Assembly (NCBI GenBank): GCA_013204405.1
Contig: JABMNX010000040.1
Coordinates: 1,046 to 65,045, forward strand
Origin: Candidatus Kaiserbacteria bacterium
Lineage (GTDB): Bacteria > Patescibacteriota > Minisyncoccia > Phycocordibacterales > JABMNX01
Length of the DNA stretch: 64,000 bases
Direction of reading: 5' to 3'
The notes beneath the pieces were generated by a model. The model was not told where the DNA came from, made no database searches, and saw nothing but the letters and a program-made list of their open reading frames with translations. A program made the position numbers and the translations under genes. Positions 6,310-20,769 of this stretch are shown here, in pieces. Every line of letters starts with the position of its first letter. Position 1 is the stretch's first letter.

Positions 6310-6416
6310 GAATTAACACAATCATGTCACTATCAATCGGTATGGTCAGAACACAATAAGACATTACAGCACCAAGAATGAGAGACTGATACCATTCTCC
6401 TTTACTATAAAATTAC

Positions 6417-6437
6417 CACCTCCTATGAAAAGAGGTG
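6417..6437. repeat. perfect hairpin CACCTC-ctatgaaaa-GAGGTG
   Basis: Read directly. The loop shares CCTATGAAA with the terminator hairpin at 18553-18577. Confidence 0.5.
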
Positions 6438-6528
6438 TAGATTACGGGTTCAGACCAAAAGAACCTATTTCTTATTAACAGTTGTGGATTTCTCCACTCA
6501 ACTTTACTGGTATCATTTAAGTGTATTA

Positions 6529-6802
6529 GTGGCTACCCCTATTGGGGTAGCGCTGTTGGTTAACAAGGTATCTTTCGAACCTCGCGGACGGTGTATTGAG
6601 GATACCTGCGAGCGTAACTCTCGGTAACAATATGCCCAGTCCTAACATCACGGTAAATAATAACCGTGCGGTATTTTTTTGTTTTCACAATAAAATCTCG
6701 TTAGTTTTCTGATAAACGACCTTATGACGTGTTGAACTCACGTCGAGTTGTCAAACGCTGTTGCTCAACTCGTCAGTCGTTATCTCCCAGAGGGGTAGCC
6801 AC
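6529..6802. repeat. 12-bp inverted repeat pair GTGGCTACCCCT (6529-6540) and AGGGGTAGCCAC (6791-6802) bracketing about 270 bp, possibly a MITE-like element. An internal hairpin GCTACCCC-tatt-GGGGTAGC lies at 6532-6551.
   Basis: Read directly in the sequence. No ORF lies inside. Confidence 0.4.
6651..6685 (+). terminator. putative rho-independent terminator
   Basis: CGGTaaataataACCG hairpin followed by tgcggta and TTTTTTTgTTTT. Confidence 0.4.
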
Positions 6803-6894
6803 CAATAAACTCAAAGAACAGAATAAAGTATTTTTGTTACCTTATATTATACCACACCTACTTCTATTTTTGAATAAAAATAGAAAATCTACAT

Positions 6895-7038
6895 TCATTT
6901 TTTTGTAATTTGACCATTTTTTATTTCATAACCCTCCGAAATAAGGCGGTTATGAATACGACGGAGTACTTCACCAAGAGTTACTAAACTTTCTATGGTT
7001 TCCTTTGAAAAAAGAGGTTCTGGCTTTTCGGTTTTCAT
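6895..7038 (-). CDS. small hypothetical ORF (47 aa), MKTEKPEPLFSKETIESLVTLGEVLRRIHNRLISEGYEIKNGQITKK
   Basis: ATG to TGA on the minus strand, inside the long non-coding stretch. Too short for the ORF track. Possibly a small DNA-binding protein or a gene remnant. Confidence 0.2.
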   Translation of the reverse strand: MKTEKPEPLFSKETIESLVTLGEVLRRIHNRLISEGYEIKNGQITKK

Positions 7039-7124
7039 ATTGTTAAACTAAGGATACAACTGAATATATTACCCGCAAGGGTAGAAGTCTAACCCTTATT
7101 ATATTTATAAGGTATGGCTTAAAA

Positions 7125-7230
7125 CCTATACAGTGCAAAAAACTCCGTCTCGGAGTCGCTGTATAGGTCGTGTGGGGAAACTCATACGGGCAGGAGCAAT
7201 CTTGTCGCAACGGGACGGAGCTTTTTGTAT
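7125..7230 (+). promoter_or_regulatory. structured leader upstream of a small membrane-protein gene, with mutually exclusive pairings
   Basis: Hairpin CCTATACAG...CTGTATAGG (7125-7167) encloses CTCCG-tct-CGGAG (7143-7155). CTCCGTC (7143-7149) can alternatively pair with GACGGAG (7214-7220), which is followed by CTTTTT. Confidence 0.25.
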
Positions 7231-7309
7231 GGAAATAAAAAATAGAACTCAATATCAAAAAAAGGTTACGTGGAAAAAGCACGGGTTTGAGAAAAACTTT
7301 GGTTCAAAA

Positions 7310-7519
7310 ATGTTAAATGGGATTACTTATGGAGTCTTTGGTTTGCCAATACTTCTTGGTATTTTTGCAGTGCCAGTTGCATTAGCGTTGTTGCCAGTAA
7401 CACTTCTTGTTGATTGGTTGTTTCCTAATCTTGTCTTTCCATACAATTTATTTTTCCAACTTCCTATTGCTATATACGTGGTCTGGCAAGTTTGGAAGTT
7501 TTTGGAGGAAAAAGATTAA
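7310..7519 (+). CDS. small hypothetical membrane protein (69 aa)
   Basis: MLNGITYGVFGLPILLGIFAVPVALALLPV... has two TM helices. The listed ORF 7133..7519 starts at GTG inside the structured leader, so the internal ATG at 7310 is preferred. Confidence 0.4.
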   Translation: MLNGITYGVFGLPILLGIFAVPVALALLPVTLLVDWLFPNLVFPYNLFFQLPIAIYVVWQVWKFLEEKD

Positions 7520-7523
7520 CTTT

Positions 7524-8123
7524 ATGAACGAGCAAGAATTATTCAGGAAGGTGTATGGTGAGATACTTGATTATGTGGAGGACGATTTACTTTTGAAATG
7601 TGCTAATTGGGGATATGGCGTTCACCAAACACTTCTGGAAAATAAACAGTATCTTATGCAGGTAGAAAAACAAGGGGAACAAAGTGCTCCGTTTATGTAT
7701 GCTGTGGCAACAGCGGTTATCGTCGGCGAGTTTGCTAAACTTGCATATAGAGACCATTTTTCTGACGAAACAAACCTTCTTTTGGACGAACTAGATTTGG
7801 AGTTTGAACAGGTGAGTGGCTTTCTCAATAAGTATATTGGTAAAGACCGTTTTGAAATGCTGGAGGAAATAAATGGTGTTAGTTTGAAGGACATTTGGGC
7901 TACGATAGGTGAGTGGAAAGAGGAGATATATAAATCACTAGTTCATATTTATAAAGAGCAAGGTGAAAAAGAGTCAGACCATAAAATATATACTTCACTA
8001 CTAACTCTGTTTGAGGAAATGGACGAGGAGACAGGAGATATTCTTCCAAGACTAATGGATAAGACTTTTGGTTATCCAGAAATGGAAGTATATGAGTATA
8101 TAAGTAATGGCTTCAAAAACTAA
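7524..8123 (+). CDS. hypothetical acidic protein (199 aa), island gene 1
   Basis: Internal ATG of ORF 7407..8123, starting 5 nt after the previous stop. No recognisable motif. Confidence 0.5.
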   Translation: MNEQELFRKVYGEILDYVEDDLLLKCANWGYGVHQTLLENKQYLMQVEKQGEQSAPFMYAVATAVIVGEFAKLAYRDHFSDETNLLLDELDLEFEQVSGFLNKYIGKDRFEMLEEINGVSLKDIWATIGEWKEEIYKSLVHIYKEQGEKESDHKIYTSLLTLFEEMDEETGDILPRLMDKTFGYPEMEVYEYISNGFKN

Positions 8124-8125
8124 TT

Positions 8126-8437
8126 ATGAAAGTTTCTATTCCAAAAGAATATCTGGGACATTTTCAAGAAGATATAGCATTCCTTACTTGGTGGAAGAAA
8201 CCAACACTACTTTTAATGAATAAAGACGAAAAAGAGTCCTTTCAAGAAACACTGGAGAAGGGTGTGTGGATACGCTTCGCGGAAGGTTGCGAATGGAGTC
8301 CTCTTTGTATGCCTATCGTTGAATTAGTCATAGAAGACGGAATAATTAGCATTCCTACCCCAGAAGACCCTAGAAGGCGTTTACGAGGTAAAAATAGGGT
8401 ATTTACAAGTGATAGAGCTGGTATTGTTCTATCTTAA
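8126..8437 (+). CDS. hypothetical protein (103 aa), island gene 2
   Basis: Starts 3 nt after gene 1. No recognisable motif. Confidence 0.45.
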   Translation: MKVSIPKEYLGHFQEDIAFLTWWKKPTLLLMNKDEKESFQETLEKGVWIRFAEGCEWSPLCMPIVELVIEDGIISIPTPEDPRRRLRGKNRVFTSDRAGIVLS

Positions 8438-8501
8438 TAAGGTGATTTGTCCCTATTGGAGTGTTATAAATTAGTATTAAGTTCGTGATAAAATAGAAGT
8501 A

Positions 8502-9092
8502 ATGACTAAACTAATGACAGTAACAAAGGAAAACGGGGTGACACAACGTAGTGACATCACTCTTACGAAAGAGACTGCTGTTACGCTGTCACAAAACATA
8601 CTTTTGGGCAGGAGTTTATTGACTAGAGAGGCAGAAAAAAAGGGAGTAGTAGAGCTTATTGGAAACGACGGAGGGCTTGTCACTGTGCCGTATCATACAC
8701 TACGTATGTGGATAGTTAGAAAGAATGTTATACCAGAGACAGGCAATGTTTTGAGGGACATTTTGGACGAAGCAAGAGAGGAATATCGTAACATCAAAAA
8801 GAGGGAAATGGACGAAAAACGGGAGGAAGTAATCGACAAGAAGTTTAATAGGGTTATATCTATGAGGACGAAAGAGCCAGCGGTAGGAATGTTCGGAGTG
8901 GTCAAAGACCCTATAACGAAAAAGCCAGTCTACATTGAGAATGTGAAACTGCTCGCAGAGCAAATGAAGAACGTACGCTTTTTGGCAGAGCGTTTATATT
9001 CAAACCGCTATGGAAAAGTTATGAAGAGTGAAAACAAGAACCTAACACTCTCTCTTTCAGACTTACGGAAGTATGAGGAGAGACAAAAATAA
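8502..9092 (+). CDS. hypothetical protein (196 aa), island gene 3
   Basis: Basic, K/E-rich C-terminus. No recognisable motif. Confidence 0.45.
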   Translation: MTKLMTVTKENGVTQRSDITLTKETAVTLSQNILLGRSLLTREAEKKGVVELIGNDGGLVTVPYHTLRMWIVRKNVIPETGNVLRDILDEAREEYRNIKKREMDEKREEVIDKKFNRVISMRTKEPAVGMFGVVKDPITKKPVYIENVKLLAEQMKNVRFLAERLYSNRYGKVMKSENKNLTLSLSDLRKYEERQK

Positions 9093-9139
9093 TACCTTCT
9101 ATTGCAATGTAAAGAATTGTAAAGTATACTGGTTTAATT

Positions 9140-10090
9140 ATGTCAAACAAAAAACTTGGTAAATTAGACAATGTTAAGTTGAGAGACATTTGGGAAAATG
9201 AGGAAAGAGATTTTTCTTCTTGGCTTATTGAACCAGAAAATCTAGCACTTCTTGGTGGCGAGTTAGGTATAGACATTTCTTTTATTGAAAAAGAAGCTGG
9301 TGTTGGAAAGTTTAGTTTGGATATTCTTGCGAAGGAGGCGAACACGAACAGAAATATAATAATTGAAAACCAGCTTGAAATTACAGACCACGACCACTTA
9401 GGTAAAATTATTACCTATGCGGCGGGGCATAATGCTTCCATTGTGATATGGATTTTTAAGGATATTCGGGAAGAACACAGACAAGCTGTTGATTGGCTGA
9501 ATGAAAATACGAATGAGGAGTTATCGTTTTTTGCTGTGAGAGTTGAGGCGTGGAAAATTGACAATTCTGCCCCTGCACCAAAGTTCCATATTATAAGTAG
9601 ACCAAATGAATGGGCTAAAACTGTCAGGAAAAGTTCTGAAGGTGGCAGTTTGGGTAAGACCAAACTTAAACAATTAGATTTTTGGACTAACTTGAAATCG
9701 TATGCAACAGGTAAAGAAGTCACATTATTTAGTAGGACACCTCGTTCACAACATTGGTATGACGTTTCTATTGGGTCGTCTGAAGCCCATATATCACTGA
9801 CTGTGAACACGAGAGACAAGATATTTTCTTGTGAGTTGTGGATAAATAACAATAAGGATATTTTTAATTTTTTGAAGGAACAAAAAGAAAAAATTGAAAA
9901 GGAATTAGACACCTCTCTTGTGTGGAAAGACGAGAATATGATTGCATCAAGAATAATACAACGACGACCTAATTCTGATTTGGATAGTGAGGAAGAAATG
10001 GAGACCTACTATGATTGGTTTATAGAAAGAACAATAGTTTTCCACAAGGTTTTTGGTAAGTTTCTTAATGATTTTAAGAATGAAAGCTAA
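9140..10090 (+). CDS. DUF4268-type protein with an N-terminal PD-(D/E)xK-like (restriction-endonuclease fold) domain
   Basis: The N-domain motif FSLDILAKE...IIIENQLEITDHDHLGKIITYAAG resembles the nuclease-like family commonly co-encoded with type I R-M systems. Confidence 0.5.
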   Translation: MSNKKLGKLDNVKLRDIWENEERDFSSWLIEPENLALLGGELGIDISFIEKEAGVGKFSLDILAKEANTNRNIIIENQLEITDHDHLGKIITYAAGHNASIVIWIFKDIREEHRQAVDWLNENTNEELSFFAVRVEAWKIDNSAPAPKFHIISRPNEWAKTVRKSSEGGSLGKTKLKQLDFWTNLKSYATGKEVTLFSRTPRSQHWYDVSIGSSEAHISLTVNTRDKIFSCELWINNNKDIFNFLKEQKEKIEKELDTSLVWKDENMIASRIIQRRPNSDLDSEEEMETYYDWFIERTIVFHKVFGKFLNDFKNES

Positions 10091-10262
10091 AGATTTTTAT
10101 ACTGCTCGAAACTTGGCAGACAAGTTAGGAGTAAATATAATGACGATTTATCGTTATATAAAAGCGGGTAAACTTAATGCTCACAAAATTGGAAAGGAGT
10201 TTCGCATTGACAAAACCGAGTTTGAGGCATTTTTAATAAAAACAAGAACAAATAAGAGGTAA
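10080..10262 (+). CDS. excisionase-family (TIGR01764-like) helix-turn-helix DNA-binding protein
   Basis: [46 protein letters not shown] matches the Xis-family HTH pattern. An alternative start lies at 10053. Confidence 0.6.
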
Positions 10263-10281
10263 AAATAATCAAACCTTTATT

Positions 10282-11844
10282 ATGGCAAAAGAAAAAAAAC
10301 AGAGAAAAACAGAGAAAAATGGGGACGAGAACTTTGAAGCACAACTATTCAAGGCGGCTGATAAACTCCGAAAAAATATAGACGCTGGCGAATACAAGCA
10401 CATAGTGCTTGGTCTTATTTTCCTTAAATATATCTCCGACGCTTTCGAAGACCATTATAAGAAACTAAAAGAAGGCAAGGGAAAATATAAAGGAGCAGAC
10501 CCAGAAGATAAGGACGAATATAAAGCTGAAAATGTCTTTTGGACACCACCAGAAGCACGTTGGACATATTTGCACTCACGAGCAAAACTTCCAAGCATAG
10601 GAAAGGATTTGGACGCGGCAATGGAAGTAATAGAAAAAGAAAACCCAACCCTTAAAGGTATCTTAACGAAAGATTATGCTAAACCTAACTTGGATAAAAT
10701 TGCGCTTGGTGAATTAGTTGATTTAATTTCTAATATAGCTCTTGGAAAGGAAACAGATAAGTCGAAAGATATTATCGGACGCGTTTATGAATACTTTCTT
10801 GGCGAGTTTGCTTCACTCGAAGGTAAAAAAGGAGGGCAGTTCTATACACCACGAAGCATTGTTGAGTTAATGGTAGGAATGACAGAGCCATTAAAGGGGC
10901 GTGTTTTTGACCCCGCTTGTGGCTCTGGTGGTATGTTTGTAAGCTCTGAAAGGTTTGTGGAAGCACACCAAGGGCGTGTAGCTGATATTTCAATCTATGG
11001 GCAAGAAAGCAACCACACCACCTACCGTCTTTGCCGTATGAACCTTGCTTTGCGTGGCATAGACGGCTCACAGGTATCTTGGAATAGCGAAGGGTCGTTT
11101 TTGAAGGACGCACACCCAGACCTTAAAGCGGACTATATCCTCGCCAACCCACCATTTAATCAAAGTGATTGGGGTCACGACATTTTGAGAAATGATGTCC
11201 GTTGGAAATATGGAGTACCGCCAGAAGGAAATGCGAACTACGCTTGGTTACAACATATGGTTCACCACCTTGCACCAAAGGGAGTTATGGCAACGGTTCT
11301 CTCTAACGGCTCACTTTCTGTTGGCGGAGTTGAGGGTGAAATGAGGAAGAAATTGGTAGACGACGATTTAGTAGATTGTATTGTGGCTTTACCAAAACAA
11401 CTTTTCTACAACACGGGTATTCCTGCTTGTTTATGGTTCATATCACGAAAACGTCTTGGAAATGGCGATAGAAAACGAACAGGAGAAATCCTTTTTATTG
11501 ACGCTTCAGAAAAGGGATTTATGGCAGACAGAACTCACAGAGAGTTTACACAAGAAGACATACAAGAGATTGCTAATACATATCACGAATGGAGGAAGGA
11601 AGGAGGTAAGTATGAAGACATTAAGGGCTTCTGTAAGTCTGCCTCCTTGGAAGAGGTAGAGAAGAATAATTATGCTCTAACTGCTGGGCGATATGTGGGT
11701 ATTGCAGACGAAGAAGACGACGGAGAACCGTTTGAGGATAAAATGAAACGACTAACAGAAACTTTGAAAGAACAAATGTCAGAAGAGGAAGAATTGAATA
11801 AAGAAATTAAAAAACAACTTAAAAGAGTTGGGTTTGATATATGA
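10282..11844 (+). CDS. hsdM: type I restriction-modification N6-adenine DNA methyltransferase subunit M
   Basis: Motif [13 protein letters not shown] and motif [14 protein letters not shown]. 520 aa. HsdM N-terminal region [25 protein letters not shown]. Confidence 0.92.
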
Positions 11845-12476
11845 GTAAAAATCTACCCTACACAGCACCATACAAAGGAGGAGACGCTTTCAACTGCCCA
11901 AACTGCGGAGCATTTGCTAATCAGTCGTGGGCAGAGCACTGGCATAATAACGAGGCAAGTTTGGACGGTCTTACTACGTCAAGGTGCGCGCGGTGCAATG
12001 ATTATGCGGTATGGAAATACGGAAATCTTATATGTCCTCAAACCTCACCCATAGAGCCACCAAGCAATGATTTACCAACAGAAGTAAAGACTGATTACGA
12101 GGAAGCAGCTAAAATTGTTCAGCAATCACCACGAGCTGCGGCAGCTCTTTTACGCTTAGCTATTCAAAAGCTTTGTGTTCACTTAGGAGGAAGCGGAAAG
12201 AAACTTAACAATGATATAGCTAATCTTGTTAAAGAGGGACTGCCAACTAAAATCCAACAAATGCTTGATACGGTTCGTGTTATAGGTAATCACTCTGTCC
12301 ACGCGGGGGTTATAGACTTAAATGATAATCCTCAAACAGCAGAAACTCTTTTCAAACTTGTAAATATAGTTACGGAGAAAATGATTACAGAGCCAAATGA
12401 AATAGACGCTATATACGATAGTTTACCAGAGGACGATAAGGAACAGATTGGTAAAAGAGATAACACAGAAAAGTAA
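11841..12476 (+). CDS. DUF4145 (HEPN-superfamily) protein with an N-terminal zinc ribbon, embedded between hsdM and hsdS
   Basis: CPNCG...CARC zinc ribbon. LRLAIQKL...[13 protein letters not shown] carries an R-x4-H motif typical of DUF4145/HEPN. Overlaps the hsdM stop by 4 nt. Confidence 0.6.
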
Positions 12477-13637
12477 ATGACAAAGACATTATCAAAATGG
12501 AATAGAGATAAATTAGGAAATACTATTGCTCTTGTAAAAAATAGTTGGCGTCCAAGTGACGAGAACATAAAATATGTTGGGTTAGAACATATAAACCAAG
12601 ACGAGCTTTCCTTAAATGGAGTTGGTGCTTCAGAGGGTTTGGCAAGCAATAAGTTTCGTTTTTCAAAGGGTGACATTCTTTTTGGTAAATTAAGACCATA
12701 CTTTCGCAAGGTGGTTAGACCAAGTTTTAATGGGGTGTGTTCGACAGATATTTGGGTTATGCGAGCTAAAGAGGGATATGACCAATCCTATTTGTTTTAT
12801 TTTATGGCTAATCCTGTTCTCATAAGTAAATCTATGGGAGCAAGCACAGGAACTCATATGCCGAGAGCTGATTGGAATTATCTGTCAGGGACAGAGTGGT
12901 ATTTTCCAGAATTATCAGAACAAAAAGAAATTGCGGAAGTACTTTCAAGCTTGGACGATAAAATAGAGCTTTTACAAAAGCAAAGCGAAACATTAGAACA
13001 AATAGCACAAGCACTTTTTAAGGAGTGGTTTTTGGAGTTTAATTTTCCAGATAAAAATGGAAAGCCGTATAAAAAGTCGGGTGGAAAAATGAGTGACAGT
13101 GAATTAGGTGAGATACCAGAGGGGTGGGAGGTTGGTTTTCTTAATGATATTTCGGAGATTACTTCTGGAAAGAGACCAGACAATAGTGTTGATAAAAAAA
13201 CTAAAACACACCAGATTCCTCTTGTTGGAGCTACGAGAATTATGGGGTATGTAGAAGAACCTTTGTATGACGAAGACATATTAGTTATTGGTAGGGTTGG
13301 AACACACGGCGTTATTCAAAGATTTTACGATAGAGTTTGGGTGTCGGACAATGCTTTTGTTATAAAATCAAAAGATTTTGTTTTTTTATACCACGTTCTT
13401 AAAAATATAAATTATGAAAAGTTAAATAAAGGAGCTGTACAGCCACTAATAACCCAGACTGATTTGAAAAATTATAAACTAGCAATGCCAAACGACAATG
13501 TTATGGATTTATTTGGAATGGCTGGTTCAGAAGTTTTCTTAAAATTAAAAGAGAACAGTTTTCAGGTTAACGTTCTTAGTAAAATCAGAGATTTTCTGTT
13601 ACCAAAACTAATGAACGGAGAAGTTCGGGTAAAATAA
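12477..13637 (+). CDS. hsdS: type I restriction-modification specificity subunit S
   Basis: 386 aa in two-TRD arrangement with conserved central and distal repeats (LPSLEEQKEIAEVLSSLDDKIELL-like segment: SEQKEIAEVLSSLDDKIELLQKQ). Confidence 0.88.
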   Translation: MTKTLSKWNRDKLGNTIALVKNSWRPSDENIKYVGLEHINQDELSLNGVGASEGLASNKFRFSKGDILFGKLRPYFRKVVRPSFNGVCSTDIWVMRAKEGYDQSYLFYFMANPVLISKSMGASTGTHMPRADWNYLSGTEWYFPELSEQKEIAEVLSSLDDKIELLQKQSETLEQIAQALFKEWFLEFNFPDKNGKPYKKSGGKMSDSELGEIPEGWEVGFLNDISEITSGKRPDNSVDKKTKTHQIPLVGATRIMGYVEEPLYDEDILVIGRVGTHGVIQRFYDRVWVSDNAFVIKSKDFVFLYHVLKNINYEKLNKGAVQPLITQTDLKNYKLAMPNDNVMDLFGMAGSEVFLKLKENSFQVNVLSKIRDFLLPKLMNGEVRVK

Positions 13638-13646
13638 GACATATGA

Positions 13647-14558
13647 GTGACTATGAAAAATATAAAACTGGCAATAGAGGAAAATGAAAAGTGGACTAAC
13701 TTGCACTCATACATTGAGTTAATAGAACAAAATTGTGATAGTAATCAGGGAGTTGCGCTTGACGGGGCAAAGAGTTTACTTGAAAGTATTTCAAAAACTA
13801 TTTTAGCTGACCGTGGAATTGTTTATGCTCCAGACGCGTCTCTTGGACGCCTTGTAAAAGACGCCGTTAGGTCACTTCCTTCTTTTGATATATTAGATAA
13901 ACAAGACGCTGATGTTGTGGTTCGTATAGTGAGTGGCTTGGAAAGCGTCTCGTCCAGTATTGGTTCTCTCCGAAACAGGCACGGAACGGTAGGACACGGA
14001 AAAGATTTACACGAAGAGCGAGAATTAGATAGACGTCTCGCGAACCTTGCAATTTCTTGTGTGGACAATCTAGCTGGTTTTCTAATGGAAGCACATTCCT
14101 CTGAACCAGACGGAATAAAAAGACTTCGCTATGAAGATTTCTCTGGTTTCAATGAAAGATTTGACGAACAACAGGAGCAAATAGAGATTGAAGGTATCGT
14201 AATAAGTCCAAGTCGCGCTCTTTTCGACCAAGATATTGAAGCGTTCAAGGAGACAGCAATTGCTTTTGGACAAAAAGAGAAGTTGGTTGACGATTTGGAG
14301 ACAAGTTTTAATTTTGTTACCACACACAACATCATTGAAGGTCTATCAAAACACAAAGATTTTTCAGAGGCACAAGTAAGACGTTTAGTATCTATATGCT
14401 CTACTAATAATCAGGTCGAGTGGATTATAGGAGACCCTGATGTTCATAAGTTTTATTCAGGAATCCTCTCAAATTACAGACATTATATGCCAACAGAACA
14501 AGCAGAGTACCTTTTTCTTTTATTAAATGAAAATAAATCTGAAGACCTTGATTTTTAG
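13647..14558 (+). CDS. hypothetical 303-aa protein in the PrrC-equivalent slot (between hsdS and hsdR), with a candidate HEPN-like R-x5-H motif
   Basis: SLRNRHGTVGHGKD at residues 108-121 (nt ~13971). No P-loop. Acidic C-terminal half. Confidence 0.4.
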   Translation: MTMKNIKLAIEENEKWTNLHSYIELIEQNCDSNQGVALDGAKSLLESISKTILADRGIVYAPDASLGRLVKDAVRSLPSFDILDKQDADVVVRIVSGLESVSSSIGSLRNRHGTVGHGKDLHEERELDRRLANLAISCVDNLAGFLMEAHSSEPDGIKRLRYEDFSGFNERFDEQQEQIEIEGIVISPSRALFDQDIEAFKETAIAFGQKEKLVDDLETSFNFVTTHNIIEGLSKHKDFSEAQVRRLVSICSTNNQVEWIIGDPDVHKFYSGILSNYRHYMPTEQAEYLFLLLNENKSEDLDF

Positions 14559-14602
14559 TACTAAGTGGACTATTTAGTGAATAGTTGTTCTAATAGATAA
14601 AA

Positions 14603-17600
14603 ATGACAAAAATATACGAAGACGACATAGAAAAATGGGTTATAGAACTTCTTGAAAAAGAGGGATATGTTTATTTATCCCCACAGGAGCAGGAAGTAGA
14701 AAGACCTGACCTAAAGGAAGTTATCCTAAAAGGACGCTTGGAACAGGCGGTGGCTCGGCTTAACTCCAATATCTCTCCAGAAGCCCGCGAGGAGGCAATA
14801 AAGCGGGTTTTTAACCTCGTTCCACAGCATTTGGTAGAAAGTAATGAGACATTTCAAACAATGCTCACAGACGGCGTGAGTGTGGAAGTCCCAGCCGAGC
14901 AAGGTGGCACTCGTGGAGAAATAGTTCACCTTGTTGATTTTGAAAATCCTACAAACAACGACCTTATAGTAACTAACCAATTTACTATTCCTTATGACCA
15001 TACTAGCAAGAGACCTGACGTAGTACTTTTGATAAATGGGCTTCCTCTTGCCGTAATTGAACTCAAAAATCCTGCTGACGAAAATGCTACGGTTCATAAG
15101 GCATTTACACAACTTCAAAACTACAAAGACGCAGTGCCACAACTTTTTGTATACAACGGTATTTTAATCGCTTCTGACGGATTAGACGGACGGGTAGGTT
15201 CTCTAACTGCTCCGTGGGAGAGATTTTATTTATGGAGAGAGCCAGATAAAAAAGAGAAAGAAAAAGTAAAACCACAAATGGAAACGATTATAAAAGAAAT
15301 GCTTCAGCCAGAAGTTCTTCTTGATTTAATAAGAAACTTTACTGTCTTTGAAAAAGTGAAGAAAGAAGATAAGAAAACAGGAAGAGTTGTTGTAGAGACA
15401 ATTAAAAAAGTGGCGGCGTATCACCAGTATTATGTAGTGAATAAAGCCATTACTTCTACTATAGAGGCGACAAGTGAGAAGGGAGAGCGAAAAATAGGAG
15501 TGGTTTGGCATACACAAGGTTCAGGAAAATCTCTTTCAATGGTTTTTTATACAGGAAAAGCTGTTCTCTCTCTTGGTAATCCAACAGTTGTCGTCATTAC
15601 AGACAGAAATGATTTGGACGACCAACTTTTTGGAACATTTTCAGCAAGCAAAGGACTTTTAAGACAAGAGCCAATTCAGGCAAAAAGTAGAGAGCACTTA
15701 AAAGAACTTTTACAAACAGCAGGTGGTGGAATTATCTTTACGACTATTCAAAAGTTTTTTCCAGAGAACGGAGGCGAAACTTATGATGAGTTAACAGATA
15801 GGAGAAATGTTGTAGTCATTGCAGACGAAGCTCACCGTTCACAATATGGTTTTGCGGCGAGAACTGTATTTAAGGACGAGCAAGCTATTACAAGATATGG
15901 TAATGCAAAGTATTTACGGGACGCTTTACCAAATGCTTCGTTTATTGGCTTTACTGGAACACCTATTGAAAGTGCAGATAAATCTACACCAGCAGTGTTT
16001 GGTAAATATATTGACGTATATGATGTTCAAGACGCGGTAGAGGACGGGGCAACCGTGCCTATTTACTACGAAAGTCGATTAGTAAAAGTTCATTTGCCAG
16101 TAGAAGAGAGTATGAAAATTGACGCGGAAGTTGAGGCGGTTGCCGAAGGGGTAGAGTTTACTGCTAAAGAGAAAGCAAAAGCAAAATGGGCGCAACTAGA
16201 GGCGGTAATTGGTAATCGTGCAAGACTTAAAGAGATTGCCAAAGATTTGGTGGAGCACTACGAAGCACGACAAGAAGTGAATATAGGAAAAGCAATGATA
16301 GTTGCTATGAGTAGGAGGATTGCTGTTGAACTGTATGAAGAAATCATTGAACTTCGTCCTGAATGGCACAACAAGGATTTTGACAAAGGAGCAATAAAGG
16401 TTGTGATGACTGCGAACTCTTCTGACCCAAAAGAGTTCCAGCCACATCATACAAATAAACAAGACAGACAAAGATTAGCTACTCGTTTCAAAGACGCAGA
16501 TAATGAACTAAAAATTGTTGTTGTTTGTGATATGTGGCTTACAGGATTTGATGTGCCAAGTTTACATACTATGTATGTAGATAAGCTAATGCGAGGACAC
16601 AACTTAATGCAAGCGATAGCTCGTGTAAACCGAGTGTTCAGAGATAAAGAAGGGGGACTTATTGTTGATTATATTGGTTTTGCGGCAGATTTACAGAAGG
16701 CACTTGCTATTTATACACAAAGCGGAGGAAAGGGAGACCCTACACTAACCCAACAAAAAGCTATTGAAGTGATGTTGGAGAAATATGAAGTGGTAAAACA
16801 AATGTTCCATAACTTTGATTATCGCCGATACTTTACTGTTGATACACAAGGAAAGCTAGAGGTTATTTTGGAAGCACAGGAACATATTCTTGCACAAGAT
16901 AATAAAGAAGGTAAAAGTGGAAAAGAAAAGAAGGAGGGTATACAAGAAAGATATACACGAGAAGTAACTGCACTCTCAAAAGTATTTGCTATCGCCATTC
17001 CAAGCGAAGAAGCTTTTTCTATACGAGACGAAGTAGCATTTTTTCAAGCCATTAAATCACGTTTAATAAAGTTTGACCCAGACCCAGAAGGCAGACGGGA
17101 AGATATAGATACTGCTATCAGGCAGATTATAGACCAAGCCATTGTTACTGAAGGTGTGGTGGATATTTTTGCAGCTGCAGGTATACAAAAGCCAGACCTT
17201 TCTGTTCTCTCTGACGAGTTCTTATCAGAGGTACAGAATATGAAGCACAGAAACTTGGCAATGGAATTATTGAAACGTGTAATTGACGACGAAATAAAGG
17301 CACGGTTAAGAAAGAACTTTATTCAAGGAAAGAAGTTATCTGAAATGCTTGAAAAGACGCTTAAAAAATACCAAAACAATCTTCTTACTGCTTCTGAAGT
17401 AATTCAAGAGTTGATTAAGTTGGCGAAGGAAATAAAAGACGCAGACGCCCGTGGCGAGGACTTAGGGCTATCAGAGGACGAGATAGCTTTCTATGACGCT
17501 TTGAGTGACAACGGTAGTGCAAAAGAGGTATTGGGAGATAACACACTTCGTGACTTAGCGAGAGTTCTTGTAGAGAAGGTCAGGGGTAGTGCAACGATTG

Positions 17601-17752
17601 ACTGGACTATCAGAGAGAATGTAAGAGCGAAGCTCCGTGTGCTTGTGAAAAGAACACTTAATCAGTTTGGGTATCCGCCAGACAAACAAGCTATTGCCAC
17701 AGAGTTTGTATTGAAGCAAGCAGAACTCTTTGCTGACGAGTGGACTAAATAG
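14603..17752 (+). CDS. hsdR: type I restriction enzyme endonuclease/helicase subunit R
   Basis: 1049 aa. Walker [16 protein letters not shown] box [11 protein letters not shown], motif [10 protein letters not shown], plus a C-terminal HsdR tail. Confidence 0.92.
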
Positions 17753-17872
17753 TTATGGAGACAAAAAAGAAAGTGGAATGGACAAAGGAAGAAAGAGACA
17801 GAATAGTCGGTTTCTTCGACCTTTTGATAAAAGTGGACAAGAGGCAAAATCCACATTTGTATAAAAAACAAA

Positions 17873-18520
17873 ATGAGCGGCAATCCAATAAATGAATTAG
17901 AAGAAAAGTTCAATGCTTTTATAAACGAAAAAGACGACCATAGATTTTTCCTGCGTCTTTCAAAGTATTTTCAATTTATTGAAGATACATTTCCTTTGGA
18001 CAACATAGTAAAAAAACTTTTCTCTTCTCCTTCTGAACTTTCTATGTTTAAGAATATAGAAGGTTTGTATAATTCTATCGTCCTACATAAATCACCTACT
18101 CGTTTTTCAATTAGTCCAAGTTCTGTGGACGGGTCTGGTATCCGTACTTTACACAAGCGTCTTATTGAAGAAGCGAGAAAATCAGGTCTTGCGAGGGTGT
18201 CTGTAATAGAAAGAAGTGTTGACGGTAGTTATACATTCAACGGGGCGACAATACCTTTTGGCAGAAAAACAATTAAATATCACATATTCGATTATCTATA
18301 TAACTCACCTAGCCACAGAGTTTCTTATGCGGAAATAGATAAATATCTTGTAAGGAATGGGTTTGGTGTAATGAAGAATAACGAAAAAAGAAGTGAAAGA
18401 ATAAGGAGGGCTGTGACAGGTTATCGTGACAAACAAAAAAAGCATTCACAGGTAGGCAATATATCCATATTAGAAATAGAGCACAATTTTGGAGTTAAGC
18501 TGAACAATCCTTTGGTTTGA
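17873..18520 (+). CDS. hypothetical protein (215 aa)
   Basis: No motif recognised. Last gene before the terminator. Confidence 0.45.
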   Translation: MSGNPINELEEKFNAFINEKDDHRFFLRLSKYFQFIEDTFPLDNIVKKLFSSPSELSMFKNIEGLYNSIVLHKSPTRFSISPSSVDGSGIRTLHKRLIEEARKSGLARVSVIERSVDGSYTFNGATIPFGRKTIKYHIFDYLYNSPSHRVSYAEIDKYLVRNGFGVMKNNEKRSERIRRAVTGYRDKQKKHSQVGNISILEIEHNFGVKLNNPLV

Positions 18521-18552
18521 GTTTGTGTTGTAGATAAAAAATAACGAACCTA

Positions 18553-18585
18553 GAAAAGCCCTATGAAAGGGGCTTTTTTGTTTTG
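18553..18585 (+). terminator. rho-independent terminator
   Basis: GAAAAGCCC-tatgaaa-GGGGCTTTT followed by TTTTGTTTTG. Confidence 0.6.
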
Positions 18586-18961
18586 TATACCAAAAAAGGA
18601 CTATTAGGGACTACTAAACCTGACTGGGAAAATATACATAGCACAACCACTTCGTGTGCAGTGCTTACAAGAGAAAAAGAAGACACGGTGTTTCGGGGAA
18701 GTCCGTGGATAAATAAAAACTTCTCCGTAAACGGAAGCTCTCTTCAGGCACAAATGCGAACGCTGGGGAAAATGTTGACCACTCGTCCCAGCCGTCTAAT
18801 TTGTGTCGGAATGGAGTAGGTGTGGGGAATGCGAGAGGTCGTTCATTCCTATCACATCAACTTTCTTCTCTCACATAAAACAACTCACAAATCCTATTTA
18901 GTAGGAAAGTGGGGCATATGAACAAAACTAGAAAAATAAAGTCAAAGATTATATAATTACT

Positions 18962-19147
18962 ATGCTACGCGAGAACAGTCAACTTCATAATAAAAAAATT
19001 GAACCCAGAAAGGGGCAACGAACTTCCTCGCGTAGCAATGTGAGGTCTCGTTGTCCCTCTTTGCGTTATGATTTTGTTAAAGAAAATCAAGAGAATGTTA
19101 ATAGAGCTTTTGATGTCCTTTTTGAAGCTATTACAAACGTGAGATAA
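18962..19147 (+). CDS. small basic ORF (61 aa) directly upstream of the recombinase gene, a possible recombination directionality factor
   Basis: MLRENSQLHNKKIEPRKGQRTSSRSNVRSR... A TATAAT-like box lies at about 18952. No homology recognised. Confidence 0.2.
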   Translation: MLRENSQLHNKKIEPRKGQRTSSRSNVRSRCPSLRYDFVKENQENVNRAFDVLFEAITNVR

Positions 19148-19155
19148 TTTTATTT

Positions 19156-20769
19156 ATGAATACACCACAGAAAACAACTAAACTTATTGCTATGTATGCT
19201 CGTGTTTCAACCTCCCACCAAGAGGAAGAACAGACTATAGAAAACCAAATGAACGCAATGAAAGAGTATATTGAAGGTAAGGGGTATACCGTGGTGCGTG
19301 TGTATAAAGACGAAGGGTGGAGTGGTGATAGTCTTATACGCCCAGCTCTTGATAGATTAAGGCAAGACGCTAAAGACAAAATCTGGGAGGGTGTACTTAT
19401 ATATGACCCTGACAGACTGGCTCGTCGATACTCATATCAAGAACTTGTTTCTGACGAACTTAGAGAAGCGGGTATTGAAGTTATGTATGTTACGGTTTCA
19501 GCTCCTAAAAACAATGAAGACAAAATACTTCACGGAGTAAGAGGATTGTTTGCAGAATACGAGAGAGCAAAAATTACTGAAAGATTTAGGTTGGGTAAAC
19601 TACGTAAAATAAAGAATGGTCACATTTTAGTAAGTGAACCGCTGTATGGATATTCTTATGTACCCAAAAATGATAAACAGCACGGTTATTATGAAATTAA
19701 CGAACAAGAAGCTAGTGTTGTGAGGCAGATTTTTTCTTGGGTTGCAGACGAAAAAATGACATTACGAGGAATTGTTAGGAGGTTACAGAAAGAGAATATA
19801 AAACCACGAAAAAGTAAGCGTGGGGTTTGGAGTACAAGCACATTAAGCACAATGCTACGAAATGAGGCATACATTGGCGAGGCACACTGGGGCAGTTCTT
19901 ATGCTGTTATTCCAGAAAAGCCACTGAAGGAGGAAAAATATAAGAAGATAAAGAAAAGTAGTCGGAGAATAAAACCGAAAGAGGAATGGCTAATTATTCC
20001 TGTTCCAGTAATAGTTGGTAAAGATATCTTTGAGAGAACACGAGCACAACTGAAAAGGAACTTTGCGCAGTGTAAAAGAAACAAAAAGAACGATTATCTA
20101 CTGTCCAGTCTTATTTATTGTGAGTGTGGTCGTAGGAGGGCTGGGGAGGGGGCTATGAATGGTAAACATTTATATTATCGTTGTACTGATAGGGTACATA
20201 GTTTCCCGCTAGCACCGACTTGCAAGGAAGGAGGTATAAACGCGAGAGTGTCAGATAAATTAGTGTGGGAGAAAATCTCAAAGCTAATGACTTCACCTGA
20301 ATTATTGAATAAGCAAATTGAAAGGTGGAACAGAAGCCAGAAAACAAAAACTAGTGGGACTATATTTAATGTTGAGTCTTTGGAGACTGAATTAAATAAG
20401 CTAAAGAAACAGGAAGATAGATACAACAAAGCGTATGGTGCTGGAGCATTTAGTGTTGAGCAACTAAAGGAGTACACATCTCCTCTGAAACAGCATATTA
20501 GTGAGGTAGAGATACAAATTGCGGAAACAAGAGAACAAGAAAAAGAGCAAAAGATTAGTAAATTACCAAGTGAAGCAGATGCCAAAGTATTTGCAGAGAG
20601 GGTTAAAGAAAATATAAATAACTTGAACTTTTCCTCAAAACGAGAGATAGTATTGTCTGCGGTGGAGAAAATCGTAGGCACACAAGAAAAGTTATGTGTA
20701 TCTGGGTATATCCCCGTAGATAATTATGTCTCATTCAAAACTAACCATCGGAATCGTTGGACTCCCTAA
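19156..20769 (+). CDS. large serine recombinase (resolvase/invertase N-domain, recombinase domain and zinc-ribbon)
   Basis: IAMYARVSTSHQEE (catalytic Ser), LDRLARR-like DPDRLARRY, and C-x2-C...C cysteines (CECGRR...YYRCTDR). 537 aa. Confidence 0.85.
   Translation: MNTPQKTTKLIAMYARVSTSHQEEEQTIENQMNAMKEYIEGKGYTVVRVYKDEGWSGDSLIRPALDRLRQDAKDKIWEGVLIYDPDRLARRYSYQELVSDELREAGIEVMYVTVSAPKNNEDKILHGVRGLFAEYERAKITERFRLGKLRKIKNGHILVSEPLYGYSYVPKNDKQHGYYEINEQEASVVRQIFSWVADEKMTLRGIVRRLQKENIKPRKSKRGVWSTSTLSTMLRNEAYIGEAHWGSSYAVIPEKPLKEEKYKKIKKSSRRIKPKEEWLIIPVPVIVGKDIFERTRAQLKRNFAQCKRNKKNDYLLSSLIYCECGRRRAGEGAMNGKHLYYRCTDRVHSFPLAPTCKEGGINARVSDKLVWEKISKLMTSPELLNKQIERWNRSQKTKTSGTIFNVESLETELNKLKKQEDRYNKAYGAGAFSVEQLKEYTSPLKQHISEVEIQIAETREQEKEQKISKLPSEADAKVFAERVKENINNLNFSSKREIVLSAVEKIVGTQEKLCVSGYIPVDNYVSFKTNHRNRWTP

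What the first reader, a model, noticed from the sequence alone, without database searches (positions are those of the whole stretch)
7310..9092. Four co-directional unknown genes at the head of the island
A small two-TM protein (7310-7519) and three tightly spaced soluble proteins of 199, 103 and 196 aa lie immediately upstream of the R-M locus, and none shows a motif I can recognise. Gaps are 5 and 3 nt between the first three genes and 65 nt before the last, consistent with an operon. Uncharacterised operons next to R-M systems in accessory islands are frequent hiding places for new anti-phage systems. Their function is not established.
Basis: inference. Interest (0 to 1): 0.5.

Follow-up and report, generated by a model that had tools for sequence, protein, structure and literature searches.

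The report
Conserved core operon of mobile island
The four unknown genes are real. They look less like a hidden anti-phage system than like the conserved core of a 14.4-kb mobile island in a CPR bacterium: a structured RNA leader, a small membrane protein, two partner proteins and a phage-type small terminase. The restriction and defence genes appear to be the island's cargo.

Summary
The four co-directional ORFs exist: 7310-7519, 7524-8123, 8126-8437 and 8502-9092, with gaps of 4, 2 and 64 nt. None matches Pfam, NCBIfam, PADLOC or PDB sequences. Gene 4 belongs to a small family whose other members sit directly upstream of large terminase and a portal-sized gene in five phage contigs, and 7 of 9 members hit a small-terminase profile. 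Genes 2 and 3 are partners: they are adjacent in several loci and fused in one protein, and gene 3 is weakly MraZ/AbrB-like. A LOOT RNA (Rfam RF03000) lies at 7086-7206, upstream of a membrane-protein gene followed by gene 2, here and in four other loci. It carries an unannotated covarying helix that ends in a U-tract. The module sits at the left end of a 14.4-kb island (about 6341-20751). The island is bounded by a 5-bp ATCGG repeat, inserted in the 5' end of ychF, and carries a large serine recombinase. Related modules occur with other small-terminase lineages, other cargo (type I R-M, a KAP NTPase) and a tyrosine integrase. My best reading is the late or packaging operon of a phage-satellite-like element (confidence 0.45). 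A new defence system is not excluded.

The parts
6336..6340 (.). Left junction (attL) core ATCGG of the island
   Evidence: The same 5-mer is at 20747-20751. Contigs from three other assemblies break exactly here: L028 and L029 end at 6340 and L011 starts at 6311. Joining 6324-6340 to 20752 onward restores a YchF N-terminus, MSLSIGIVGLPNVGKS.
6341..6476 (+). Orphan reading frame with no start codon. In the excised circle it would be the last 45 codons of the integrase gene.
   Evidence: Joining 19156-20751 to 6341 onward gives a 577-aa ORF, against 537 aa in the integrated form. Its end...LIPFSFTIKLPPPMKRGVDYGFRPKEPISY, matches the contiguous C-terminus of an ORF that runs in from the end of L020 (...LIPFSFMIKLPPPIKRGVDYGFRPRL), just upstream of that locus's LOOT module.
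6480..6830 (+). Strongly structured non-coding stretch with terminator-like hairpins. Possibly the integrase terminators of the circular form; function unknown.
   Evidence: Positions 6400-6900 fold at -142.7 kcal/mol, z = -6.2. Inverted repeat 6516-6545 / 6786-6815. Terminator-like hairpins at 6532-6551 and 6649-6668. No Rfam match.
6895..7038 (-). 47-aa ORF divergent from the LOOT promoter region. Candidate small regulator; not validated.
   Evidence: ORF listing and gene calls. No family hit. No homologue in related loci.
7038..7066 (+). Promoter-like region: a -10-like TATTGT (7038-7043) and the conserved box ACAACTGAATA (7056-7066) just upstream of LOOT
   Evidence: A TATAAT-like hexamer followed by the box ACAAC(T/C)GAATA (ACTACTAAATA in L020) precedes LOOT in all five loci printed. 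Coordinates. Inference from sequence only.
7086..7206 (+). LOOT RNA (Rfam RF03000)
   Evidence: cmscan score 79.8 bits against a gathering score of 46.4, E = 2e-13, full-length model match. The same motif lies upstream and co-oriented with a membrane-protein gene followed by g2 in L023/L015, L017, L016 and L020, and upstream of a membrane-protein gene in L026.
7143..7228 (+). Unannotated long-range helix of LOOT: the P2 apex (7143-7152) pairs with 7211-7220, followed by the invariant CUUUUUGU (7221-7228). This looks like a pseudoknot or terminator-like 3' extension.
   Evidence: Across six sequences, 100% of cells are paired and 6 of 9 pairs show compensatory changes. Slid controls pair at only 34-61%. 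RNAalifold recovers the helix independently.
7310..7519 (+). g1: small hydrophobic (membrane) protein, 69 aa
   Evidence: ORF. Hydrophobic stretch over residues 1-43. Small membrane-protein ORFs occupy the same slot before g2 in L005, L016, L017, L020, L022 and L023. No sequence homologue found.
7524..8123 (+). g2: 199-aa all-alpha protein of a small uncharacterised family, with no catalytic signature
   Evidence: 6 relatives among 5.8e9 proteins. 41 cluster representatives among 1.84e9. Invariant and near-invariant residues are all hydrophobic. The AF2 model is all-helical but poor, pLDDT 50. Fusions exist with a g3-like MraZ-type domain (P0046) and with a CpXC domain (P0041).
8126..8437 (+). 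g3: 103-aa partner of g2, weakly MraZ/AbrB-like, probably DNA-binding
   Evidence: Homologues lie directly after g2 in L019, L017 and L005, and directly before a g4 homologue in L030. hhalign to the N-terminal domain of the fusion protein P0046 gives E = 3e-6. That domain hits Pfam MraZ at E = 5e-6. g3 itself has no direct Pfam hit.
8502..9092 (+). g4: homologue of the phage terminase small subunit (TerS)
   Evidence: 7 of 9 family members hit phrog_1482, terminase small subunit, best E = 1.9e-6. Homologues lie directly upstream of TerL in L006/7, L008 and L009 (phrog_2, E 1e-33 to 1e-36). In L014 and L033 they lie upstream of TerL-sized (558-594 aa) and portal-sized genes. The AF2 model (pLDDT 70) shows a small N-terminal helix/hairpin domain plus a long helical hairpin. 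The top BFVD fold hits are TerS-annotated but not significant.
9140..18520 (+). Cargo: DUF4268/PDC-S11; an HTH_17 gene (10080-10262); type I R-M hsdM/hsdS/hsdR with embedded DUF4145/PD-T7-4 and an Abi_C protein; and a 215-aa unknown protein
   Evidence: Pfam and PADLOC hits.
19156..20769 (+). Large serine recombinase (integrase). Its 3' end crosses the right junction.
   Evidence: Resolvase, Recombinase and Zn_ribbon_recom domains. The ORF overlaps the start of ychF (20726).
20747..20751 (.). Right junction (attR) core ATCGG. The island supplies a replacement ychF 5' end (20726-20746).
   Evidence: L013 starts at 20747. L011 (14,466 bp, starting at 6311) ends at 20776 by arithmetic. Island-state YchF begins MSHSKLTIGIVGLPNVGKS.

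Best explanation
The four genes, together with the LOOT RNA just upstream, form the conserved backbone operon of a family of small integrative elements of CPR (Patescibacteria) bacteria. The R-M and other defence genes are interchangeable cargo.

The copy in this window is a 14.4-kb island. A large serine recombinase inserted it into the 5' end of ychF. The island carries a phage-type small terminase (g4) but no large terminase, portal, capsid or tail genes.

The most likely mechanism is that of a phage satellite, in four steps:

1. A promoter just upstream drives the LOOT leader, which ends in a covarying helix plus a U-tract. This would keep the operon off or attenuated until a signal, for example infection by a helper phage, allows read-through.
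2. Read-through expresses the membrane protein g1, the g2-g3 pair and g4. g3 is a probable MraZ/AbrB-type DNA-binding protein and g2 is its alpha-helical partner.
3. g4 would recognise the island's own DNA and recruit the helper phage's large terminase, so that the island is packaged into helper capsids.
4. g1-g3 would regulate this step or interfere with helper packaging.

Shown here:

- gene structure and homologies;
- recurrence of the module with different cargo and integrases;
- island borders;
- RNA covariation.

Inferred:

- regulation by LOOT;
- any packaging or hijacking activity;
- the roles of g1-g3.
For: 1. g4 is a TerS homologue.
- 7 of 9 family members hit phrog_1482.
- In five distinct phage-like contigs the homologue is followed by a 558-594-aa gene and a 666-679-aa portal-sized gene. 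In the three contigs tested, the first of these is TerL (phrog_2, E about 1e-33 to 1e-36).

2. In the window no TerL or structural gene follows. Cargo and an integrase follow instead.

3. The module recurs.
- TM-g2-g3-TerS-like in L017 and L005.
- TM-g2-TerS-like in L023 (Wolfebacteria CP011209).
- g2-g4 homologue-KAP NTPase-tyrosine integrase-tRNA-Thr in L031.
- g3-g4 homologue in L030.

4. At least three small-terminase-like lineages occupy the slot after g2/g3.
- Island copies of the g4 family fall at two separate places among phage copies in a neighbour-joining tree.
- An unrelated Terminase_2-like family fills the slot in L017, L023 and L005.
- This pattern fits repeated matching to different helper phages.

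5. g2 and g3 are functionally tied. They are adjacent, and they are fused in P0046.

6. LOOT lies co-oriented upstream of a membrane-protein gene followed by g2 in 5 loci, with a conserved promoter-like box upstream and a covarying helix plus U-tract downstream.

7. The island borders are precise, and contigs break there in several assemblies. This fits coexisting empty-site or excised forms.

8. The architecture matches published PICI organisation: 7-20 kb in size, an integrase, TerS, accessory genes after terS, and no structural genes (PMC10085698; PMC13376191 abstract).
Against: - No primase or replicase and no capsid-remodelling gene was recognised on the island. The island therefore fails two of the five PICI core components.
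- No helper phage is identified, and no excision or packaging has been observed.
- The window's own g4 does not hit the TerS profile directly; the assignment passes through homologues that are 41-62% identical.
- Fold searches with the g4 model were not significant.
- The TerS label of the second family (L017, L023, L005) is weak: Pfam Terminase_2 E = 0.005, phrog_51 E = 0.015, and no PDB match.
- In L017 and L023 the TerS-like gene sits next to hsdM. This adjacency could instead reflect a functional tie to type I R-M.
- g2 relatives were not found in IMG/VR contigs or GenBank phages, so no phage link exists for g2 itself.
Confidence: 0.45

Rival explanations
1. The four genes are a new anti-phage defence or abortive-infection module, or an accessory or regulator of the adjacent type I R-M system. 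Under this reading the TerS-like protein would act as a DNA-binding sensor or decoy, the MraZ-like protein as a regulator, and the membrane protein as an effector.
For: - g2 relatives are next to defence genes in the window and in L001, L017, L021, L023 and L031.
- The TerS-like gene directly precedes hsdM in L017, and precedes it with one small gene between in L023.
- A small membrane protein is a common abortive-infection effector (general knowledge).
Against: - No PADLOC hit for any of the four.
- g2 has no conserved polar residues.
- The neighbouring defence genes differ between loci (type I R-M, KAP NTPase, Eco57I/PLD-helicase) while the module stays constant.
- g4-family members are ordinary small terminases in phages.
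- In L005 the module is flanked only by HTH_17 genes.
Confidence: 0.2
2. The module belongs to an integrative element that is not packaged by phages. Its DNA-binding proteins (the TerS-like wHTH protein g4 and the MraZ-like g3, with g2) would control excision, integration directionality or maintenance. Examples would be a recombination directionality factor or an element-level repressor.
For: - 5 of 9 g4-family members weakly match a MerR-like regulator profile (phrog_2474). Excisionases also have MerR-type folds (general knowledge).
- The module travels with two integrase types, serine and tyrosine.
- attP lies inside the int gene, so excision changes the integrase C-terminus. This calls for directionality control.
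Against: - Full-length homology of g4 to proteins that sit next to TerL in phages.
- Replacement of the slot by a second terminase-like family is hard to explain for a directionality factor, which must match one integrase.
- An HTH_17 excisionase-type gene is already present at 10080-10262.
Confidence: 0.2
3. The genes are a decaying remnant of a prophage late region (regulators plus terS) left beside an R-M island. They would have no current function.
For: - g4 is phage-derived.
- No other phage genes remain on the island.
Against: - All four ORFs are intact.
- The module is conserved in at least eight loci down to 40-50% identity, always without TerL.
- The upstream RNA shows compensatory covariation.
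- The island has intact borders and an intact integrase.
Confidence: 0.08

Closest known systems
Phage-inducible chromosomal islands (PICIs, including SaPIs) and minimalist satellites (PICMIs)
   Same: - A small integrative island (14.4 kb) with an integrase at one end.
- A terS homologue but no terL, capsid, tail or lysis enzymes.
- Accessory and defence genes placed after terS, as described for PICIs in PMC10085698.
- An HTH_17 (AlpA/excisionase-type) gene is present.
- terS lineages appear to have been exchanged with phages.
   Different: - The host is a CPR bacterium (Kaiserbacteria). No satellite of Patescibacteria was found in the paper library.
- The integrase is a large serine recombinase whose attP lies inside its own 3' end.
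- No primase-replicase and no known capsid-remodelling or Ppi/Rpp-type gene was recognised.
- g2 and g3 have no counterparts in known satellites.
- A structured RNA (LOOT) heads the operon.
Phage terminase small subunits (PHROG 1482; Pfam Terminase_2-type proteins)
   Same: - g4-family members match the TerS profile and sit immediately upstream of TerL in phage contigs.
- The predicted architecture is a small N-terminal DNA-binding-like domain plus a long helical hairpin.
   Different: - In the window, and in L030 and L031, the gene has no TerL partner and follows g2/g3.
- There is no significant match to solved TerS structures.
LOOT RNA motif (Rfam RF03000; one of the 224 candidate RNAs of Weinberg et al. 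2017, PMC5737381)
   Same: Full-length, high-scoring matches to the covariance model: 66-87 bits against a gathering score of 46.4.
   Different: - Rfam types LOOT as an sRNA gene with no known function or gene association.
- Here it is consistently a 5' element of one operon type on mobile islands.
- It has an additional covarying helix and a U-tract beyond the 121-nt model.
Leader-terminator control of phage late operons (lambda pR'-6S RNA with Q antitermination; HK022 put RNA). Recalled knowledge, analogy only.
   Same: A promoter, then a short structured leader ending in a terminator-like element, then a small membrane protein gene, then terS.
   Different: No sequence or structural homology was tested or is claimed. 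No antiterminator has been identified.
MraZ / AbrB (SpoVT-AbrB) DNA-binding proteins and antitoxins
   Same: - g3 has two '(I/V)xIP' half-motifs.
- g3 is homologous to the N-terminal domain of P0046, and that domain hits Pfam MraZ.
   Different: - g3 itself gives no Pfam hit.
- Its partner g2 has no toxin-like catalytic residues.

Membership tests
Phage terminase small subunit (for g4) | Sequence match to a TerS family profile | tested here: met
   7 of 9 members of the g4 family hit phrog_1482, best E = 1.9e-6. The window protein itself is linked only through 41-62% identical homologues. Its own best PHROG hit is a family of unknown function (E = 0.0013).
Phage terminase small subunit (for g4) | Gene lies directly upstream of the large terminase gene | tested here: not met
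   Met for homologues in the five phage contigs L006/7, L008, L009, L014 and L033. Not met in the window, where DUF4268 and the R-M genes follow, nor in L031.
Phage terminase small subunit (for g4) | N-terminal HTH DNA-binding domain plus a central helical oligomerisation core; fold similar to solved TerS structures | tested here: inconclusive
Phage terminase small subunit (for g4) | Ring oligomer that binds a pac/cos site and stimulates TerL | not testable with these tools
   Needs biochemistry.
PICI-type phage satellite (for the island) | Integrase and defined attachment sites | tested here: met
   Large serine recombinase at 19156-20769. ATCGG at both junctions, a restorable ychF, and contig breaks at the junctions. 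Known PICIs mostly use tyrosine integrases (recalled knowledge).
PICI-type phage satellite (for the island) | Regulation module (AlpA or Stl-type) | tested here: inconclusive
   The HTH_17 gene at 10080-10262 (E = 1e-11) is of the AlpA/excisionase type, but it sits between cargo genes. The 47-aa divergent ORF at 6895-7038 is unassigned.
PICI-type phage satellite (for the island) | Primase-replicase module | tested here: not met
   No primase, replicase or helicase-loader domain was found in any island ORF. g2 and the 215-aa protein remain unassigned.
PICI-type phage satellite (for the island) | Small terminase or another packaging-redirection gene, and absence of structural and lysis genes | tested here: met
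   g4 is a TerS homologue. No capsid, portal, tail or TerL domains are present on 6341-20751.
PICI-type phage satellite (for the island) | Induction, excision and packaging by a helper phage | not testable with these tools
   Only indirect hints exist: assembly-graph breaks at both junctions in several samples.
LOOT RNA (RF03000) | Score above the Rfam gathering threshold over the full model | tested here: met
   79.8 bits against 46.4, model positions 1-121.
MraZ / SpoVT-AbrB (for g3) | Match to the Pfam family model | tested here: not met
   No hit for g3 or its close homologues at E up to 5. Only a transitive link exists, through the P0046 N-terminal domain.
Known anti-phage defence systems (PADLOC-DB v2) | Match of any of g1-g4 to a defence-system protein model | tested here: not met
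   0 families for all four at E up to 1, while the downstream genes hit PDC-S11, PD-T7-4 and AbiJ/PDC-S34.

The most novel reading that the evidence does not exclude
The island represents a previously undescribed family of phage satellites of CPR/Patescibacteria. The orphan LOOT RNA would be their helper-responsive switch: a leader whose covarying pseudoknot or terminator helix gates expression of a membrane protein, a g2-g3 regulatory or interference pair, and a hijacking small terminase. Defence systems would ride as cargo.
Probability: 0.25. Interest if true: 0.8.

Novelty: new variant of a known kind. Interest (0 to 1): 0.6.

Why it matters
- It gives the first genomic context and a testable role to LOOT, an orphan structured RNA, and extends its structure beyond the Rfam model.
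- It defines a conserved four-part module (membrane protein, g2, g3, small terminase) as the core of mobile islands that move R-M and other defence systems among CPR bacteria. Mobile elements and phage-host biology in this group are almost unexplored.
- If these islands are satellites, phage parasitism by satellites extends to ultra-small episymbiotic bacteria, and this would explain how their defence islands spread.
- It warns against reading every unknown operon beside an R-M system as a new defence system.

Tried and rejected
Searches and predictions that led nowhere:

- Pfam, NCBIfam and PADLOC scans of g1-g4 gave no hits. PHROGs gave only weak matches to families of unknown or unrelated function.
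- PDB sequence and profile searches gave only noise for g2 (6- and 36-sequence profiles), g3, g4 and the second TerS-like family.
- The AF2 model of g2 had pLDDT 50, too poor for a fold search, so none was run.
- The g4 fold searches gave no significant match. The afdb50 library was unavailable.
- The search for related loci with the broad g2 alignment failed because the alignment lacks a conserved enough stretch. The narrow alignment found nothing in viral or genome contigs.
- tblastn of g2 and g4 against GenBank phages found no match.
- The context of the closest g4 homologue, P0008, was uninformative because the contig is only 1.4 kb.
- The supplement of Weinberg et al. 2017 that describes LOOT is not held.

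Ideas considered and rejected:

- g2-g3 as a toxin-antitoxin pair. g2 has no conserved polar residues, and the two are fused in P0046.
- g2 as an endolysin. It is all-alpha with no enzyme signature.
- A long direct repeat as the att site. Only a 5-bp core exists, which is compatible with a serine recombinase.
- The 128-aa gene call for g1. It overlaps LOOT.
Full report
**1. Observation**

The window carries four co-directional ORFs on the + strand:

- g1, 7310-7519, 69 aa
- g2, 7524-8123, 199 aa
- g3, 8126-8437, 103 aa
- g4, 8502-9092, 196 aa

In 100 shuffles of the window, ORFs of at least 196 aa occur 0.01 times per 64 kb. ORFs of at least 103 aa occur 4.9 times and ORFs of at least 69 aa 41 times. 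g2 and g4 are therefore real by length alone. g3 is validated by positional homologues. g1 is supported only by its hydrophobicity and by the recurrence of a membrane-protein ORF in the same slot elsewhere.

None of the four hits Pfam, NCBIfam or PADLOC, and PHROGs gave only weak matches to families of unknown or unrelated function. PDB sequence and profile searches also found nothing.

The genes are not directly next to hsdM. A DUF4268/PDC-S11 gene (9140-10090) and an HTH_17 gene (10080-10262) intervene. The type I R-M operon itself contains a DUF4145/PD-T7-4 gene and an Abi_C gene.

The contig is annotated in NCBI as Candidatus Kaiserbacteria, a CPR lineage.

**2. The island**

Upstream genes are housekeeping: ATP synthase subunits through to a Flavodoxin_2 gene that ends at 6309. 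Further right, 19156-20769 encodes a large serine recombinase with Resolvase, Recombinase and Zn_ribbon_recom domains. Its 3' end overlaps the start of ychF at 20726.

In another sample the region was assembled as a separate 14,466-bp contig that starts at window 6311. The next contig starts at 20747. In two further samples the upstream contig ends exactly at 6340. The pentamer ATCGG occurs at 6336-6340 and at 20747-20751.

Joining 6324-6340 to 20752 onward gives MSLSIGIVGLPNVGKS..., an intact YchF N-terminus. In the island-bearing state the island supplies a replacement 5' end, MSHSKLTIGIVGLPNVGKS. The island is therefore about 6341-20751, or 14.4 kb. The contig breaks fit coexisting empty-site or excised forms. 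That last point is an inference.

In the excised circle the integrase ORF would run on from 20751 into 6341-6476, giving 577 aa instead of 537 aa. The added tail...LIPFSFTIKLPPPMKRGVDYGFRPKEPISY, matches the contiguous C-terminus of an ORF at the start of L020, which lies just upstream of that locus's LOOT module. So attP lies inside the int gene, and integration swaps the integrase C-terminus.

**3. g4 is a phage small-terminase homologue**

Its family is small: 9 clusters among 5.8e9 proteins.

In five distinct phage-like contigs (L006/L007, L008, L009, L014, L033) the homologue sits at most one tiny gene upstream of a 558-594-aa protein. A 666-679-aa portal-sized protein and further genes of conserved sizes follow. 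In L006, L008 and L009 the first of these proteins hits terminase large subunit phrog_2 at E = 1e-33 to 1e-36. The corresponding proteins of L014 and L033 were not scanned.

Seven of nine family members hit phrog_1482, terminase small subunit, with a best E of 1.9e-6. Five weakly match phrog_2474, annotated as a MerR-like regulator.

**4. g2 and g3**

g2 has 6 relatives in the word-indexed search and 41 cluster representatives in the exhaustive HMM search. In a 36-sequence alignment the invariant and near-invariant positions are all hydrophobic: W29, F57, A60, I66, F70, L139 and F197. There is also a conserved C-terminal motif, AYxYVSNGFQY. This points to a binding or structural protein rather than an enzyme. 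The AF2 model is all-helical but poor, with pLDDT 50.

g3 homologues follow g2 in L019, L017 and, more distantly, L005. A g3 homologue precedes a g4 homologue in L030.

One family member, P0046, is a fusion of a g3-like domain with a g2 domain. hhalign of the g3 family against that domain gives E = 3e-6. The domain hits Pfam MraZ at E = 5e-6. g3 is therefore a probable MraZ/AbrB-type protein and a functional partner of g2, although g3 itself gives no Pfam hit. Another member, P0041, fuses a CpXC domain to g2.

**5. The module recurs with changing partners**

| Locus | Gene order |
|---|---|
| L017 | LOOT, 106-aa membrane protein, g2, g3, 153-aa Terminase_2-like protein, hsdM, DUF4145, GmrSD_N protein, hsdS, Abi_C-like |
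| L023/L015 (Candidatus Wolfebacteria CP011209) | LOOT, 317-aa membrane protein, g2, 179-aa homologue of the L017 protein, small membrane protein, hsdM, hsdS |
| L005 | HTH_17, membrane protein, g2, g3-like, 158-aa protein whose N-terminus is homologous to the Terminase_2-like proteins, HTH_17 |
| L031/L032 | g2 homologue, g4 homologue, KAP NTPase, two small genes, tyrosine integrase, tRNA-Thr, prfB |
| L030 | zincin-like 307-aa protein, g3 homologue, g4 homologue |
| L001, L021 | g2 next to other R-M or defence genes |

The cargo varies (type I R-M, KAP NTPase and others), and so does the integrase (serine or tyrosine). The core of g2, g3 and a small-terminase-like gene persists.

In a neighbour-joining tree the island copies of the g4 family fall in two separate places among phage copies. 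A second, unrelated terminase-like family fills the same slot in three loci. Its TerS label is weak: Pfam Terminase_2 E = 0.005, phrog_51 E = 0.015, and no PDB match.

**6. LOOT RNA**

Rfam finds LOOT (RF03000) at 7086-7206 with 79.8 bits against a gathering score of 46.4. The same motif, at 66-77 bits, lies co-oriented upstream of a membrane-protein gene followed by g2 in L023/L015, L017, L016 and L020.

In the IMG/VR contig L026 it scores 86.5 bits. There it lies next to a serine recombinase and upstream of a membrane or secreted protein, with no g2.

In the five loci examined, a TATAAT-like hexamer and the box ACAAC(T/C)GAATA (ACTACTAAATA in L020) precede the motif.

Just past the Rfam model, a G-rich strand (window 7211-7220) pairs with the apex of hairpin P2 (7143-7152). 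The invariant CUUUUUGU follows at 7221-7228. Across six sequences, all 53 cells pair and 6 of 9 pairs show compensatory changes. Slid controls pair at only 34-61%.

RNAalifold recovers this helix independently and adds A-tract/U-tract pairing. With the basal P2 stem kept, the helix is topologically a pseudoknot. Together with the U-tract it looks like a built-in terminator or switch.

I found no functional description of LOOT in the paper library.

**7. Interpretation**

The evidence fits a mobile-element backbone operon better than a defence system. The island has these features:

- precise ends;
- an integrase;
- a phage-type terS without terL or structural genes;
- cargo placed after terS;
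- a size of 14.4 kb.

This is the organisation described for PICI-type satellites (PMC10085698). No primase-replicase or capsid-remodelling gene was recognised, so I do not file the island as a PICI.

I commit, at 0.45, to a satellite-like mechanism. LOOT gates a late operon whose small terminase redirects a helper phage's packaging machinery to island DNA. g1-g3 act as regulators or interference factors.

The rivals are:

- a new defence or R-M accessory module (0.2);
- excision or maintenance control of a non-packaged element (0.2);
- a decaying prophage remnant (0.08).

No satellite of Patescibacteria was found in the paper library.

**8. Verdict**

I rate novelty as a new variant of a known kind and interest at 0.6. 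The interest rests mainly on three things:

- the link between LOOT and this operon, plus the new helix;
- the precise island and attP-in-int anatomy;
- the prospect of satellite-like elements in CPR bacteria.

Noticed in passing
window 7086-7228: LOOT RNA (RF03000) lies about 100 nt upstream of g1. It has an extra covarying helix (7143-7152 with 7211-7220) and an invariant CUUUUUGU beyond the Rfam model.
   Followed up: yes
window 6324-6340 and 20726-20776: The island is inserted in the 5' end of ychF. The original start, ATGTCACTATCAATCGG, is stranded at the left border, and the island supplies a substitute ychF 5' end at the right border. Contigs from three other samples break exactly at these points.
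   Followed up: yes
window 6341-6476 and 19156-20769: attP lies inside the serine recombinase gene. The integrase is 537 aa when integrated and would be 577 aa in the excised circle, with the last 45 codons stored at the opposite end of the island.
   Followed up: yes
window 6480-6830: A highly structured non-coding stretch: positions 6400-6900 fold with z = -6.2, and a 30-nt inverted repeat closes about 300 nt. It has two terminator-like hairpins and no Rfam match. Its function is unknown.
   Followed up: partly
window 6895-7038 (- strand): A 47-aa ORF is divergent from the LOOT promoter region. Gene finders call it, but no family or homologue was found. It could be a small repressor.
   Followed up: partly
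window 10080-10262: A 60-aa HTH_17 (excisionase/AlpA-type) gene lies between the DUF4268 gene and hsdM. HTH_17 genes also flank the g2 module in L005.
   Followed up: partly
window 9140-17752: The R-M locus is a composite defence cluster: PDC-S11 (DUF4268), hsdM, PD-T7-4 (DUF4145), hsdS, an Abi_C/AbiJ-like gene, and hsdR. The DUF4145 insertion between hsdM and hsdS recurs in L017 at 64% identity.
   Followed up: partly
window 17873-19155: A 215-aa protein with no family assignment is followed by about 640 nt of non-coding DNA before the integrase gene. A hairpin followed by a T-run at about 18560-18590 was seen by eye.
   Followed up: no
L031 1-6859 (NCBI GCA_964350485.1): A second island type: g2 homologue, g4 homologue, 949-aa KAP NTPase, two small genes, tyrosine integrase, tRNA-Thr, prfB.
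   Followed up: partly
L026 8361-12384 (IMG/VR UViG_3300009694_001303): The best-scoring LOOT copy (86.5 bits) lies next to a divergent large serine recombinase. A membrane or secreted protein lies downstream, and convergent TerL-like and TerS-like genes follow. There is no g2.
   Followed up: partly
L020 311-1312 and L023 3785-4339: ClpP/SDH-type serine protease genes lie upstream of LOOT in two loci. In PHROGs they score as 'head maturation protease'. Their role is unknown.
   Followed up: no
L030 93-1016: In this locus a 307-aa protein occupies the g2 slot before the g3 and g4 homologues. It carries an HExxH motif and gives weak zincin (MPTase-PolyVal) hits.
   Followed up: partly
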